From positions 1-34,859 of the IMG/VR virus record IMGVR_UViG_3300042342_000059: 34,859 bases of DNA, one strand, 5' to 3'. Position 1 is the stretch's first letter. Every line of letters begins with the position of its first letter. Positions 1-34,859 of the stretch are shown here, piece after piece. This DNA is from a virus. Taxonomy: Duplodnaviria; Caudoviricetes. Both the position numbers and the translations under genes were made by a program. The notes below the pieces were generated by a model. It had not been told where the DNA came from and ran no database searches. It saw nothing but the letters and a program-made list of their open reading frames with translations.

Positions 1-127
1 AAATGATGTCGCAGTTAGGGTTGTTAGGCTTAGAAGACAACGAGCCTTTAGGTGCGGATATAGGTGCGAGAAGCATCGTTAAATTAGTTGAAGAGGTATT
101 TGAATGCGATATATCAAGAAGGGATAG
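1..127. repeat. Terminal direct repeat, copy 1 (circular assembly overlap)
   Basis: 1-127 is identical to 34733-34859; 127 is a common assembler k-mer size and the repeat falls inside a gene. Confidence 0.95.
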
Positions 128-344
128 ATCATTACGAACTACCTTTGGTCGCAAGGCTGCTGCTTATTTACTCAGAAGGTATACTAAATTGAACCTCAAA
201 GAGATAAGCGCATATACTGGCACTAAAGACCATACCACCGCAATTCACAATATCAAACAAGCAAACAACCTAATTGACACGGAAGATTGGTTTAAGGACA
301 AATTAAAAAGAATTTGCCAAAAGATTGAAATTACCGAAAATTAG
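3..344 (+). CDS. DnaA C-terminal (domain IV) HTH-like protein, 3' part; starts at 34648 across the junction (142 aa total)
   Basis: RKAAAYLLRRYTKLNLKEISAYTGTKDHTTAIHNIK resembles the DnaA domain IV signature RQIAMYL..LSLPEIG..FGGRDHTTVLHA; no AAA+ domain. Confidence 0.8.
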   Translation: MMSQLGLLGLEDNEPLGADIGARSIVKLVEEVFECDISRRDRSLRTTFGRKAAAYLLRRYTKLNLKEISAYTGTKDHTTAIHNIKQANNLIDTEDWFKDKLKRICQKIEITEN

Positions 345-354
345 TTTATATTTG
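325..354 (+). promoter_or_regulatory. Bacteroidota-type housekeeping promoter for the replication operon
   Basis: TTG(325-327)-N19-TATATTTG(347-354) matches the -33/-7 consensus TTG-N19-TAnnTTTG. Confidence 0.7.
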
Positions 355-365
355 CAAATATATAA

Positions 366-456
366 AAATACATTAACGGAAGTCCAGACGATAATGTGTT
401 TAGTGGTTAAATAATAGCCCCTGGTAGCTGGACTCTATTGGGGGCTTTTTTATTTT
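366..456 (+). promoter_or_regulatory. Two-hairpin leader with complementary loops; hairpin 2 is an intrinsic-terminator-like attenuator
   Basis: Hairpin 366-401 has loop GAAGTCCAGA. Hairpin 416-446 has a 12-bp stem with loop CTGGACT and is followed by a T-tract, just before ATG 460. Confidence 0.7.
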
Positions 457-459
457 ATT

Positions 460-1185
460 ATGGCAAAAGACCCTGCATTCCTATTTTATAGCAGTGATTT
501 CTTAAACGGAGTAGCTGACTTAACAATGGAAGAGAGAGGACAATTTATTACTCTCTTATGTTTACAACATCAAAAAGGTACACTTACAGACAAAACCATT
601 AGGTTATCTTTAGGTTCGGTTTCGGTTGATGTTTTGAGCAAGTTTTTAAAAGACAAAGACGGAAATTTTTACAACGAACGGCTAAGTGAAGAGATTGAAA
701 AACGCATTCAATTTACTGAAAGCCGTAGAAACAATGGCTCTAAAGGTGGTAGACCTAAAAATAACACAAAACCATTAGGTTTAGCTAAACATAACCTTAT
801 GGAAGATGAAAATGAAAATGAAAATGAAGATATAAATATTAATAAAAGTAAATGTACTTTTGAACAAGTTTACGAATATATGTCAATTCGGATAGGAACA
901 GATCAAGCAAAGATTGAAGCTGAAAAATTTGTAAATTACTATGAAAGTAATGGTTGGAAAGTAGGGAAAAACCCTATGAAAAGTTGGGGAGCAGCCGCAA
1001 ATAATTGGATAACAAACTCTAAACAATATGCAAAAGGAACTAAAAACAATCAACGAAAGCTTGATAAAAACGAACTCGAAAACCTTAAAAACTACAACTA
1101 TATCCATTCTACTTCCTATGGAGCAGGAGATTATGACCGCCTTTTCGGGGGAACGAATGAGGAACATAAACTCTACCATATTTAA
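460..1185 (+). CDS. Phage replication initiator / replisome organiser (YdaU/DUF1376-like N-terminus)
   Basis: N-terminal PAFLFYSSDFL..LTMEERGQFITLL; RRNNGSKGGRP linker; ENENENED tract; C-terminal KFVNYYESNGWKVGKNPMKSW domain. Confidence 0.75.
   Translation: MAKDPAFLFYSSDFLNGVADLTMEERGQFITLLCLQHQKGTLTDKTIRLSLGSVSVDVLSKFLKDKDGNFYNERLSEEIEKRIQFTESRRNNGSKGGRPKNNTKPLGLAKHNLMEDENENENEDININKSKCTFEQVYEYMSIRIGTDQAKIEAEKFVNYYESNGWKVGKNPMKSWGAAANNWITNSKQYAKGTKNNQRKLDKNELENLKNYNYIHSTSYGAGDYDRLFGGTNEEHKLYHI
590..837. repeat. Putative replication origin iterons inside the initiator gene
   Basis: Exact 16-mer ACAAAACCATTAGGTT at 590-605 and 766-781 in different codon phases; GAARAT tandem run and AT-rich tract at about 802-850. 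Confidence 0.5.
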
Positions 1186-1786
1186 GCAGAACCTTATTTA
1201 CCTTATGCAGCTTGTAGGTATCAACAATCCTGGAGATGTTAAGTTAGCAATTTTAGAGGATTGGATAAGAACAGAGTATGGTAACTTTACAATAAACGAA
1301 GTTAAAGTAGCGTTTAAGCAAATGGTAGCCAATGACTTTATAGATCACTACCAAAACTTTAGCCCTGCATACTTTAGTCAGGTTATGGATAGGTACAAGA
1401 AAAAAGCAAACGAAGTAAGAAAAATGATGCCACAGGAACGAGTTGAAGCAATACCACACTTAACCGATTTAGAGATAATTGATTACAGTTACCAGGAATA
1501 TAAGGTTCTGGAAAATAGAACTTTTGACAGGTTGTTTAACCCTTTATCCGTATTTACAAAGCTTAATAGTTCAGGCATCAAGGTATGGACAAAAGAAGAT
1601 GGAGCAGTTGCTAAAAAGAAACTAATGGAAATTATTACCTACAAGGCTAATAAAATGGACATCATAAGTGCAAAGCAGTACCGGGACGAATGGACTGAAC
1701 AATGGTTAAAGAACCAGGCTCGAGCAGTTGCAGTAGCTTTATTTTTTGAGGAACAAATTTTACAAAACAAAACAACGTTTAAATGA
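1028..1786 (+). CDS. Putative helicase loader / replication protein (lambda P-like position)
   Basis: Directly follows and overlaps the initiator; YGNFTINEVKVAF..HYQNFSPAYFSQVMDRY helical domain; start uncertain. Confidence 0.45.
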   Translation: MQKELKTINESLIKTNSKTLKTTTISILLPMEQEIMTAFSGERMRNINSTIFKQNLIYLMQLVGINNPGDVKLAILEDWIRTEYGNFTINEVKVAFKQMVANDFIDHYQNFSPAYFSQVMDRYKKKANEVRKMMPQERVEAIPHLTDLEIIDYSYQEYKVLENRTFDRLFNPLSVFTKLNSSGIKVWTKEDGAVAKKKLMEIITYKANKMDIISAKQYRDEWTEQWLKNQARAVAVALFFEEQILQNKTTFK

Positions 1787-3060
1787 GACACGGCAGTTTA
1801 TTTAGCGGAATAGGTGGCTTTGATTTAGCAGCAGAATGGTGCGGTTGGGAAAACGTATTTCATTGCGAATGGAATACCTTTGGTCAAAAAGTTTTAAAAC
1901 ATCACTTCCCAAATTCAATATCTTACAATGACATCACAAAAACAGATTTCACTATTCACAGAGGAACAATCGACATCATTAGTGGTGGCTTCCCTTGCCA
2001 ACCCTACTCAAGTGCAGGAAAGCGACTTGGCAAAGAAGATGAGAGACATCTCTGGCCGGAAATGCTTAGAGCAATTCGGGAAATTCAACCGAGTTGGGTT
2101 GTGGGCGAGAACGTTCGCGGACTTACTAATTGGAACGGGGGATTGGTATTCGACGAGGTGCAAACTGAGTTGGAAGCTGAAGGCTACGAAGTCCTCCCGT
2201 TTTTACTTCCAGCTTGTGCCGTTAACGCACCACACCGAAGAGACCGCATTTGGTTTATTGCCTACTCCAACAGCTTCAGACAATCCGGAGAAAAATACAG
2301 GCAAAATGAAACAAGACGGACTTCAAAAGAGAGCGAGAACCGGATTGCTACCAACACCAACTTGTATGGACAGCAGCAAGAACGGGGATATGACTGGAGC
2401 AGCCAAATTGTTAATGGGAGCAACAACCAGAAGTTCAGGTCAGCAAATACAAAGGACTTTGACAGATGCAGTACAAATGGAGATATTAAAGGAGAACCCT
2501 GCTCTTGCAATGGAACTTGCATCAAAAGAATTTATGAAAAGAACCAAACTTCCTACACAAATAGAGTTTGTAGAATGGATCAAAACAATAGGAACGCAGA
2601 AGGAACTATCGGAAAAACTAAATTTGAAATTAACGAAAGTAGAGCATTGGTTCAGGAAGGACAAGATAGGTTTCAGTTATCCATCAATAGAGGATTGGAC
2701 TTTAATCAAGAGCCATTATCAAGTACCAATGGAGTTAGACAACAAGATGTCTTATCAAGAGTCAATAGAATGGAAGGGTCTTTTGCCAACACCGACATTA
2801 CAAGAATACACGAACAGCACATTACCCCCATCACAAATAAAAAGAAACAATATAGCAGGAGTTCTTTTGAGGAAAGGTGTTTCAGCACATTCCCAACTGA
2901 ACCCCCTATTTGTGGAGGAGATGATGGGCTTCCCAAAGAATTGGACAACATTACCTTTTCAAAATGGAGAAACGAAAGCATCAAAGCCTACGGGAACGCA
3001 ATAGTTCCACAAGTAGCTTATCAAATATTTAAAAGTATTTGTCAATATCAAAAACTTTAG
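1783..3060 (+). CDS. DNA cytosine-C5 methyltransferase, large (alpha-like) chain with motifs I-VIII and X
   Basis: SLFSGIGG (I), GGFPCQPYS (IV), ENV (VI), PHRRDRIW (VIII), YGNAIVPQVA (X); no motif IX in this frame. Confidence 0.92.
   Translation: MRHGSLFSGIGGFDLAAEWCGWENVFHCEWNTFGQKVLKHHFPNSISYNDITKTDFTIHRGTIDIISGGFPCQPYSSAGKRLGKEDERHLWPEMLRAIREIQPSWVVGENVRGLTNWNGGLVFDEVQTELEAEGYEVLPFLLPACAVNAPHRRDRIWFIAYSNSFRQSGEKYRQNETRRTSKESENRIATNTNLYGQQQERGYDWSSQIVNGSNNQKFRSANTKDFDRCSTNGDIKGEPCSCNGTCIKRIYEKNQTSYTNRVCRMDQNNRNAEGTIGKTKFEINESRALVQEGQDRFQLSINRGLDFNQEPLSSTNGVRQQDVLSRVNRMEGSFANTDITRIHEQHITPITNKKKQYSRSSFEERCFSTFPTEPPICGGDDGLPKELDNITFSKWRNESIKAYGNAIVPQVAYQIFKSICQYQKL
1928..3004 (+). CDS. Overprinted methyltransferase second (beta-like) chain with motif IX, TRD-like repeats and an HTH
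   Basis: 358 codons open in the +1 frame wholly inside the MTase; LNPLFVEEMMGFPKNWT resembles motif IX; three GLLPTPT units. Confidence 0.8.
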   Translation: MTSQKQISLFTEEQSTSLVVASLANPTQVQESDLAKKMRDISGRKCLEQFGKFNRVGLWARTFADLLIGTGDWYSTRCKLSWKLKATKSSRFYFQLVPLTHHTEETAFGLLPTPTASDNPEKNTGKMKQDGLQKRARTGLLPTPTCMDSSKNGDMTGAAKLLMGATTRSSGQQIQRTLTDAVQMEILKENPALAMELASKEFMKRTKLPTQIEFVEWIKTIGTQKELSEKLNLKLTKVEHWFRKDKIGFSYPSIEDWTLIKSHYQVPMELDNKMSYQESIEWKGLLPTPTLQEYTNSTLPPSQIKRNNIAGVLLRKGVSAHSQLNPLFVEEMMGFPKNWTTLPFQNGETKASKPTGTQ

Positions 3061-31959: not shown

Positions 31960-32365
31960 CTTCGGCAATATATTAGATCGTGAAACCTACGAGCAACTTA
32001 GGGAATTAGATTATACTAACCCAAACTTTAAGGGTTGCGGAGACGAGTTCCAGTTTAACCGGGAGTGGTGGGTTATCTTAGATCAAGGGGAAATTGTATC
32101 TTATTGCGGCTCTATTTATTCCAAAGGCATTTGCATATTTAATAGAGCGTGGGTTAAAAAATCACATAGAGGTCAGGGCATACAAAGACGAATGATTAAG
32201 ACCAGGTTAAAGGCTGCATCTACTTTTTGCCATATAGCTATTACTTATACTACCTTAGACAACTTCCCTTCAGCTAATAACCTTATAGATTGCGGGTTCA
32301 AGCTATACCTACCGGAGTATTCATACGGGGGTTCTGATAAACTTTACTTTCAAAAGCTACTATAA
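31937..32365 (+). CDS. GNAT acetyltransferase
   Basis: RAWVKKSHRGQGIQRRMI acetyl-CoA motif A; NFPSANNLIDCGF motif B. Confidence 0.8.
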   Translation: MRLKKIFSFGNILDRETYEQLRELDYTNPNFKGCGDEFQFNREWWVILDQGEIVSYCGSIYSKGICIFNRAWVKKSHRGQGIQRRMIKTRLKAASTFCHIAITYTTLDNFPSANNLIDCGFKLYLPEYSYGGSDKLYFQKLL

Positions 32366-32621
32366 AGTTTCACTTTAGTACAACAAAAGGTAGTAAAACT
32401 ACTACTTTTGGCTGCATTTTACTTCCGACTTTGGCAACTTTTACCCTCACTTTTGTACGTATTTAAGTACAACTATACGTATAAATAGCACAATCTAAAG
32501 TGCAATTAAGTCGGTAATTACCATCATTACATACTATTTTTTGACATAATGTGCTATAAAATGCACATTAACTCGTGTATTTATCCTATATAAAACCCAT
32601 TATTTGCATCATTGTTGCAAA
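32363..32621. other. Non-coding array of tiled heterogeneous palindromes
   Basis: At least eight distinct dyads in about 260 bp; the largest intergenic gap in the genome. Confidence 0.7.
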
Positions 32622-32670
32622 AATAATTTATATAATTTTACACTTTGTATTGTTAATTGTAGTATATTTG
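32605..32670 (+). promoter_or_regulatory. Early promoter (-7 TATATTTG) with upstream dyad shared with 9403
   Basis: TATATTTG at 32663-32670; TGCATC-ATT-GTTGCA-AAAATAA from 32605; -33 spacing imperfect. Confidence 0.6.
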
Positions 32671-32686
32671 TTGAAACAAAACACAA

Positions 32687-32893
32687 ATGACACATTTAAC
32701 CAACTACCAGAAGTTCCAATTCGAGAGATTTGGCACTATCTTACTGCAAGACGGGAGCAGTACACAAAACCCGTATGATCCAAAATTACTGCCTAAAAAC
32801 TACGATTACGAAGATGATGATTACACCTTCACTCGTTGGGTTGAAAACAATGCAGAACTTGAACTTTTAAAAAACGAATTATATGAAGATTGA
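32687..32893 (+). CDS. Hypothetical acidic early protein
   Basis: First ORF after the promoter; AAACAAAACACAAATG leader. Confidence 0.65.
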   Translation: MTHLTNYQKFQFERFGTILLQDGSSTQNPYDPKLLPKNYDYEDDDYTFTRWVENNAELELLKNELYED

Positions 32894-34647: not shown

Positions 34648-34859
34648 ATGCTAACTAAAAATAGAGATGTTTCAATAAGACAACTAAAGGAGTTGTACTA
34701 TGCTCAACGTAATACCCACGTTAAATTGCACGAAATGATGTCGCAGTTAGGGTTGTTAGGCTTAGAAGACAACGAGCCTTTAGGTGCGGATATAGGTGCG
34801 AGAAGCATCGTTAAATTAGTTGAAGAGGTATTTGAATGCGATATATCAAGAAGGGATAG
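34648..34859 (+). CDS. 5' part of the DnaA domain IV-like gene (continues through the junction to 344)
   Basis: ATG 34648 MLTKNRDVSIRQLKELYYAQRNTHVKLHE is in frame with MMSQLG at 34735. Confidence 0.75.
   Translation, partial: MLTKNRDVSIRQLKELYYAQRNTHVKLHEMMSQLGLLGLEDNEPLGADIGARSIVKLVEEVFECDISRRD
34733..34859. repeat. Terminal direct repeat, copy 2
   Basis: Identical to 1-127. Confidence 0.95.

What the first reader, a model, noticed from the sequence alone, without database searches (positions are those of the whole stretch)
360..459. Kissing-loop two-hairpin RNA leader gating the replication initiator
Seen: the ~100-nt leader between a consensus promoter (347-354) and the initiator ATG (460) holds two hairpins. 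Hairpin 1 (366-378/389-401) has loop GAAGTCCAGA. Hairpin 2 (416-427/435-446) has 12 bp with three G-U pairs and a U-tract. Its whole 7-nt loop, CTGGACT (428-434), is the exact reverse complement of AGTCCAG (381-387) in loop 1. The G-U pairs work only on the + strand transcript. Known analogies: the IncI/ColIb-P9 repZ loop-loop pseudoknot and P1 C4/P4 CI RNA control. Inference: a cis riboregulator sets termination versus read-through into replication genes. The short terminated RNA might also act in trans as an immunity or copy-control RNA in a phage with no obvious repressor.
Basis: partly seen in the sequence, partly recalled or inferred. Interest (0 to 1): 0.78.

Follow-up and report, generated by a model that had tools for sequence, protein, structure and literature searches.

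The report
Kissing-loop attenuator before phage replication genes
Ahead of this freshwater-type phage's likely replication genes lies a roughly 95-base leader whose two hairpin tips stay exactly complementary while their letters change between relatives; it likely sets how much transcription passes a predicted stop signal, and the stopped RNA may silence only phages with the same tip sequence.

Summary
Confirmed. Hairpins, loops and U-tract are where stated. The 7-base loop pairing covaries: six sequence types, 5 of 7 pairs changed on both sides, 132 of 134 contexts matched against 20% expected. Loop types reassort with six kinds of first gene. Leaders of unrelated sequence in other phages share the design (24 of 67).

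Best reading: a terminator attenuator built like the guanidine-IV riboswitch but without its conserved loops or gene context. Loop pairing probably holds the terminator open, since the 14-base linker barely spans both stems. The stopped RNA would then have a free loop able to shut off new transcripts of its own type.

Main rival: an invariant six-codon leader ORF (394-414) ends at the terminator, and loop 1 lies just before its start. No third target site, antisense promoter or Rfam match was found. Direction of control, termination and trans action are untested.

This scan found the same architecture before on other DNA; one hairpin may be an unannotated candidate in PMC10690425.

The parts
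347..354 (+). Promoter-like -7 box TATATTTG (Bacteroidota consensus recalled), just after the stop of the upstream gene
   Evidence: kept as TATATT(T/C)G in relatives
366..401 (+). Hairpin 1 (P1): 10 pairs, one mismatch, 2 pairs, 10-base loop; -8.5 kcal/mol
   Evidence: 3 of 12 pairs change on both sides
381..387 (+). Loop-1 7-mer; lies at -13 to -7 of the leader AUG at 394
394..414 (+). Six-codon leader ORF (MCLVVK, stop 412-414), start buried in the 3' arm of P1; translation untested
   Evidence: 54 of 57 distinct protein-selected leaders keep it
402..422 (+). Invariant linker; predicted weak helix (about -3.3 kcal/mol) with the G-C-rich base of the terminator's 5' arm
   Evidence: at least 5 pairs in 66 of 67 distinct leaders
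416..446 (+). Hairpin 2 (P2), intrinsic-terminator-like, with a weak top (top 3-6 pairs +0.7 to +2.6 kcal/mol) and a strong base
428..434 (+). Loop-2 7-mer, complement of 381-387; starts with a YUNR motif in all six main types
447..456 (+). U-tract; predicted 3' end of a roughly 93-base terminated RNA near 453
   Evidence: end site inferred
460..1185 (+). First gene: DUF1376-like, likely replication initiator
   Evidence: fold search weak
3..344 (+). Upstream gene: stand-alone DnaA domain IV protein (probably starts at 34648 across the terminal repeat)
   Evidence: followed by the leader in 77 of 80 relatives, the other 3 cut short

Best explanation
The leader is a conserved two-hairpin RNA element whose loops are kept complementary, and it likely works as a transcription attenuator: pairing of loop 1 with the terminator's loop would hold the terminator open and let transcription enter the likely replication genes. 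Shown: the folds, the covarying 7-base pairing, the U-tract and the gene context. Inferred order of events: P1 folds; the linker holds the terminator's G-C base weakly; loop 2 emerges while the terminator top is still unstable and can pair with loop 1; with the loops paired the 14-base linker is nearly taut, so the terminator base would not close and polymerase reads on. If the terminator wins, a roughly 93-base RNA is released in which the same strain would leave loop 2 free. As this RNA builds up it would bind loop 1 of new transcripts before their own loop 2 exists and tip them to termination: a self-limiting burst of replication proteins, specific to the loop type.
For: Covariation: 517 of 518 loop cells pair, 5 of 7 pairs change on both sides, slid controls 37-40% paired. 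Loops match in 132 of 134 contexts although loop type reassorts with promoter allele and with six kinds of first gene. Weak terminator top and competing linker helix; in two distant families the linker and arm have the opposite polarity and still pair (L448, L488). Geometry: in 17 of 20 hand-picked leaders the two stems sum to 23-28 steps with 12-17-base linkers, span/reach 0.82-1.28, although P1 ranges from 4 to 16 steps; two others give 1.7-1.8, and the one slack case (0.46) has a further hairpin in its linker. Precedent: in guanidine-IV a kissing loop hinders the terminator, P2 growth shortens the linker, and the kiss is weak in the terminated RNA (PMC11611296, passages and Discussion). For types: loop columns vary 2-3 times more than stems (0.86 against 0.27-0.39 bits), and all 14 datasets with two or more contigs hold two or more types; cross-type duplexes are mostly much weaker than cognate ones.
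Against: No expression data: termination, read-through and the short RNA are not shown. The geometry is a ruler estimate; fraying three weak pairs at the base of P1 drops the ratio to 0.66-0.76, so kiss and full terminator could coexist. The 20 leaders stand for about seven designs. The linker helix is weak (shuffle p 0.03-0.12 each, not independent) and absent from the commonest distant family. Kissing helices over 6 pairs are rare in solved structures (PMC10798244, passages). The invariant leader ORF is not explained by this model. A 7-8-pair trans contact has about 33 bases of transcription time to form; by recalled rate constants that needs a pause or a very abundant RNA. Some cross-type pairs are only 2-3 kcal/mol weaker than cognate. 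One distant leader keeps the terminator loop but has lost its partner (L507).
Confidence: 0.42

Rival explanations
1. Leader-ORF attenuation with a built-in antisense loop. A ribosome on the six-codon ORF, stopping 2 bases before the terminator, would cover its 5' arm and allow read-through; loop 2, mainly from terminated RNA in trans, would bind just upstream of the AUG, block initiation and so cause termination. Here the kiss is the OFF signal.
For: 54 of 57 protein-selected leaders keep MCLVVK plus stop (52 TAA, 2 TGA); 2 run on through the terminator, one fusing to the first gene; 16 variants of the P1 5' strand face one 3' sequence. In 14 of 26 hand-picked designs an ATG lies in or within 7 bases after the target (6.2 to 8.9 expected), and several ORFs stop at the terminator's edge (L448, L439, L461, L200). 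In L506/L509/L512 a 13-codon ORF keeps frame and stop position while target and antisense change. P4 and IncI use antisense-controlled leaders (PMC4825925, PMC8383071, passages); the role of leader ORFs there is recalled.
Against: The AUG is buried in P1 (unpaired probability 0.002 or less). One family member has only M-F-stop (L287). The commonest distant family has at most start-stop codons near the 5' end, and L488, L213, L453 and L490 have no ATG near the target. Invariance can also come from P1 and the linker helix. The designs were picked after I had seen ATGs in some of them.
Confidence: 0.27
2. The kiss promotes termination in cis: it stabilises the weak terminator top and pulls the linker helix apart, giving a fixed low read-through or a compact, stable small RNA (possibly pairing between copies) with no feedback.
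For: The terminator top is unstable alone; the kiss is feasible if the base of P1 frays; the full terminator fold is about 11-12 kcal/mol below the early alternatives.
Against: No slack single-stranded linker among 20 leaders; does not explain why loops vary more than stems.
Confidence: 0.15
3. A riboswitch or protein-bound switch: a metabolite or a phage protein, such as the upstream DnaA domain IV protein, decides whether the kiss forms.
For: Same architecture as guanidine-IV; invariant linker, whose reverse complement matches a recalled DnaA box at 7 of 9 positions; the DnaA-IV gene is always upstream in this family.
Against: 5 of 7 loop pairs vary; unrelated sequences share the design; the box is absent after DnaA-IV genes in L448, L451, L488 and L467 and is not enriched in the window.
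Confidence: 0.12
4. An ordinary leaky terminator with a chance or DNA-level inverted repeat.
For: One earlier scan note reached this verdict for another phage (e1-6174041; not tested here).
Against: G-U pairs favour the + strand.
Confidence: 0.03

Closest known systems
Guanidine-IV riboswitch (GGAM-1 / mepA motif; PMC7736828 passages and section 12 part 1; PMC11611296 passages and Discussion)
   Same: A 5' hairpin whose loop pairs with the loop of an intrinsic terminator hairpin; competition between kiss and terminator through a linker; about 90-100 bases.
   Different: Loops here vary in six or more types instead of holding highly conserved ligand-binding bases; genes are phage replication-type and homing-nuclease genes, not sugE-type exporters; no ligand known; a leader ORF is present.
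Satellite phage P4 immunity: CI RNA with seqA and seqC (PMC4825925, one passage); P1/P7 C4 RNA (Rfam RF01695 listed in PMC2864571; mechanism recalled)
   Same: An RNA made from the leader of replication genes carries a sequence complementary to an upstream part of the same leader; premature termination is the proposed output; possible trans action.
   Different: Only one target, upstream; no downstream copy tracks loop type; the antisense is the loop of the terminator itself; one 7-base seed; no Rfam match.
IncI/ColIb-P9 repZ pseudoknot with Inc antisense RNA, and pT181/pIP501 attenuators (PMC8383071, passages)
   Same: Intramolecular loop pairing ahead of a replication initiator that a trans RNA could block; sequence types recall incompatibility groups.
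   Different: No conserved counter-transcript promoter; partner is a terminator loop, not a strand next to the ribosome site; found in phages.
Candidate DNAVirus_187 of Fremin et al. 2023 (PMC10690425, supplementary table rows)
   Same: 49 bases, 122 sequences, 105 freshwater, directly upstream of DUF1376 (54) and DUF4373 (36) genes.
   Different: Too short to hold both hairpins; no function or pseudoknot given in the rows seen; its alignment could not be read, so identity with this family is untested.

Membership tests
Guanidine-IV riboswitch | Loop of a 5' hairpin pairs with the loop of a terminator hairpin | tested here: met
Guanidine-IV riboswitch | Highly conserved loop nucleotides | tested here: not met
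   5 of 7 pairs vary; further types in L448 and L488
Guanidine-IV riboswitch | Upstream of sugE-type or guanidine-related genes | tested here: not met
   first genes are DUF1376-like, Lin1244_N, HNH, GIY-YIG or unassigned
Guanidine-IV riboswitch | Match to the family model | tested here: inconclusive
   no Rfam match at gathering score, none so named at E up to 10; I did not check that the model is in that library
Guanidine-IV riboswitch | Binds guanidine and raises read-through | not testable with these tools
   needs in-line probing and transcription assays
P4 CI / P1 C4 immunity RNA | Lies in the leader ahead of replication genes | tested here: met
   initiator label likely, not proven
P4 CI / P1 C4 immunity RNA | Complementary targets both upstream and downstream of the RNA | tested here: not met
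   in 11 genomes, extra copies of the own 7-mer (0-6) are no commoner than those of other types
P4 CI / P1 C4 immunity RNA | Match to Rfam C4 | tested here: not met
P4 CI / P1 C4 immunity RNA | Stable processed RNA acting in trans and giving immunity in lysogens | not testable with these tools
   no usable RNA data; no tyrosine integrase in 5 of 5 relatives, so lysogeny is not shown
IncI repZ pseudoknot / plasmid attenuators | Counter-transcribed antisense RNA | tested here: inconclusive
   no - strand TAnnTTTG between 363 and 4044; 21 of 53 leaders have one within 440 bases, near chance; other promoter types not covered
IncI repZ pseudoknot / plasmid attenuators | Leader ORF ahead of the initiator (recalled feature) | tested here: met
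   394-414 in 54 of 57 leaders; translation not shown, and it stops 45 bases before the initiator
IncI repZ pseudoknot / plasmid attenuators | Pseudoknot needed for translation of the initiator | not testable with these tools
   needs reporters; hairpin 2 ends 13 bases before the ATG

The most novel reading that the evidence does not exclude
A protein-free immunity and timing switch: the phage's own terminated leader RNA is the repressor of its replication genes, and seven loop letters define exclusion groups, so that co-existing phages diversify the kiss to escape each other's shut-off. The same logic recurs in unrelated sequences across phages of likely Bacteroidota hosts.
Probability: 0.35. 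Interest if true: 0.86.

Novelty: new variant of a known kind. Interest (0 to 1): 0.67.

Why it matters
A kiss between a 5' hairpin and a terminator loop is known from a ligand-sensing riboswitch with conserved loops. Here it has freely exchangeable loop letters and heads replication-type genes in many uncultured phages that show no integrase. If the terminated RNA acts in trans, these phages time replication and exclude kin by RNA alone. The natural matched types, and three natural mismatched records, give a ready panel for testing whether loop pairing against a short linker stops a terminator, and possible orthogonal 95-base switches for Bacteroidota.

Tried and rejected
RNA data: three runs held 5-18% of the words, all as contigs of relatives, none covering 401-500; uninformative. 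Rfam: nothing at gathering score; best E 1.6-2.4, far below the cut-offs. GenBank phages: no match to 1-1800. DnaA-box idea for the linker: dropped. Third target site: none. An apparent link between kiss strength and terminator strength came from truncated stems and vanished (-15 to -17 kcal/mol in all types). The covariance model from this family found only its own members among 93 sources, so the distant designs are not detectable homologues. A looser linker pattern added one true variant (L429, apparently the same as L287) and seven stretches that look like chance matches. Fold search of the initiator model (mean pLDDT 61): best Z 6.7, best Foldseek E 0.04 to a DnaD-containing model; inconclusive. 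The palindrome at 347-362 is not kept in most relatives. The loop test used a wrong offset and was redone. Literature: ten full-text searches listed no paper describing this element; most subscription papers are not in the library. The alignments and diagrams of PMC10690425 could not be read and may hold part of it. The 'tug-of-war' preprint (10.64898/2026.06.17.733018, abstract and first two of six parts) concerns structures 0-4 bases before a terminator and fits only the linker helix loosely.

Full report
Setting. The window is a complete virus record with direct terminal repeats (34733-34859 repeats 1-127). The listed long ORFs with Pfam hits all lie on the + strand and include terminase, portal and a C5 methylase; no integrase was hit among 54 ORFs scanned, nor a tyrosine integrase in 5 of 5 near-complete relatives. 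A Bacteroidota host is inferred from the promoter motif (recalled consensus) and from the record titles of many of the 35 genome loci with related first genes.

Observation. The fold is better than all 200 shuffles, favours the + strand, and the loop match is the only one of 7 bases among 451 neighbouring hairpin pairs in the window.

Conservation. Of 80 relatives chosen by the initiator protein alone, 79 include the leader and 78 have complementary loops. In 74 distinct leaders (partly chosen by a pattern that fixes the linker and the 3' arm of P1) 517 of 518 loop cells pair, 5 of 7 pairs change on both sides, and slid controls give 37-40%. Six loop types occur. In 134 distinct 280-base contexts 132 match, against 20% if the loops assorted freely; loop type reassorts with promoter allele and with six kinds of first gene: two DUF1376-like alleles, Lin1244_N, an unassigned protein, and HNH or GIY-YIG nucleases; the HNH gene precedes such a gene in the three cases read. 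Three records are mismatched (L044, L554, L579) and look like crossovers in the linker or assembly chimeras. The loops are 40 bases apart, so tight linkage explains part of the match, but not the paired substitutions. Loop columns vary more than stems, and types co-occur in all 14 datasets with two or more contigs (assembly merges near-identical genomes, which biases this).

The design is wider than the sequence family. Among 67 distinct regions upstream of distant DUF1376-like genes, 39 had a promoter-like box in range and 24 had a perfect complement of 7 or more bases between the last hairpin loop and the upstream leader (shuffle p at most 0.025 each); 22 of these are one second family with 7-base loops. 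L448 and L488 keep this phage's gene order and 10-base loop with new loop letters. Others carry the antisense inside a long terminator (L233, L439, L509). A model built from the window's family does not detect them. L507 has lost the partner loop.

Mechanistic anatomy. (a) The terminator's top six pairs are not stable alone; stability comes from the G-C base, which would delay its folding. (b) The invariant linker can pair with that base (at least 5 pairs in 66 of 67 leaders, about -3.3 kcal/mol), with reversed polarity in L448 and L488; the second family lacks this helix. (c) By a ruler estimate the kissed stems span about 90 A and the 14-base linker reaches about 88 A; 17 of 20 hand-picked leaders give ratios of 0.82-1.28 despite very different P1 and P2 heights. 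Fraying the base of P1 would relieve this. (d) Loop 2 begins with YUNR in all six main types but not in L448 or L488; the motif promotes first contact in CopA-CopT (PMC10798244, passages). (e) 394-414 is a six-codon ORF kept in 54 of 57 protein-selected leaders; loop 1 lies at -13 to -7 of its AUG, and ATGs next to the target recur in 14 of 26 designs, but this AUG is buried in P1.

How it likely works. I put the pairing itself at about 0.97 and control of passage through the terminator at about 0.85. The direction is open. The best reading follows guanidine-IV, where the kiss hinders the terminator and is weak once the terminator is complete (PMC11611296): kiss gives read-through. The main rival is that a ribosome on the leader ORF gives read-through and the kiss blocks it. 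Both predict a terminated RNA with a free loop 2 that could act on new transcripts, so I put some trans feedback at about 0.5, and type-specific exclusion between phages at about 0.35. None of these steps was measured; the RNA runs available were uninformative.

Comparison. It works like guanidine-IV in architecture and possibly like P4 CI or IncI control in logic, but fails tested defining features of the first two: variable loops and other genes; no downstream target in 11 genomes; no Rfam match. No conserved antisense promoter was seen.

Novelty. Ten full-text searches listed no description. Fremin et al. 2023 list unannotated candidates directly upstream of DUF1376 genes, among them the 49-base freshwater DNAVirus_187; their alignments were unreadable, so one hairpin may already be catalogued. 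Papers seen: PMC11611296 (passages, Discussion), PMC7736828 (passages, section 12 part 1), PMC4825925 (one passage), PMC10798244, PMC8383071, PMC2864571 (passages), PMC10690425 (passages, supplementary rows), 10.64898/2026.06.17.733018 (abstract, parts 1-2 of 6). Earlier notes of this scan report the same architecture in other genomes and gave me the guanidine-IV lead; none shared sequence words with this leader. They are not counted as evidence. Verdict: a real, apparently undescribed RNA element; new variant of a known kind; interest 0.67.

Noticed in passing
window 1783-3060 and 1928-3004 (+): The C5 methylase gene has a second long open frame (358 aa) nested on the same strand; earlier scan notes describe this layout as M.EcoHK31I-like.
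   Followed up: no
window 34648-34859 and 3-344 (+): Stand-alone DnaA domain IV protein with a DHTT motif, kept directly before the leader; similar genes precede kissing leaders in L213, L448 and L488. Its target is unknown.
   Followed up: partly
L259, L265, L269, L287, L525 against window 460-1786: Unrelated N-terminal types of first gene are exchanged behind the same leader and before the same unassigned second gene.
   Followed up: partly
L256, L270, L274, L292 (first gene after the leader): HNH or GIY-YIG nuclease genes are inserted directly behind the terminator.
   Followed up: partly
L506, L509, L512, L439, L233, L228 (leaders): Long terminators carry antisense to the bases just before a short leader ORF; in L506/L509/L512 a 13-codon ORF keeps its frame and stop while the target changes.
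   Followed up: partly
L044, L554, L579: Natural leaders with hairpin 1 of one type and hairpin 2 of another; recombinants or assembly chimeras.
   Followed up: partly
window 590-605 and 766-781: A perfect 16-base direct repeat inside the initiator gene, 176 bases apart; possible origin element.
   Followed up: no
window 32365-32690: Long intergenic region ending in a promoter-like box at 32663; no + strand terminator-like site was found between it and the leader, so early transcripts may also reach hairpin 2.
   Followed up: partly
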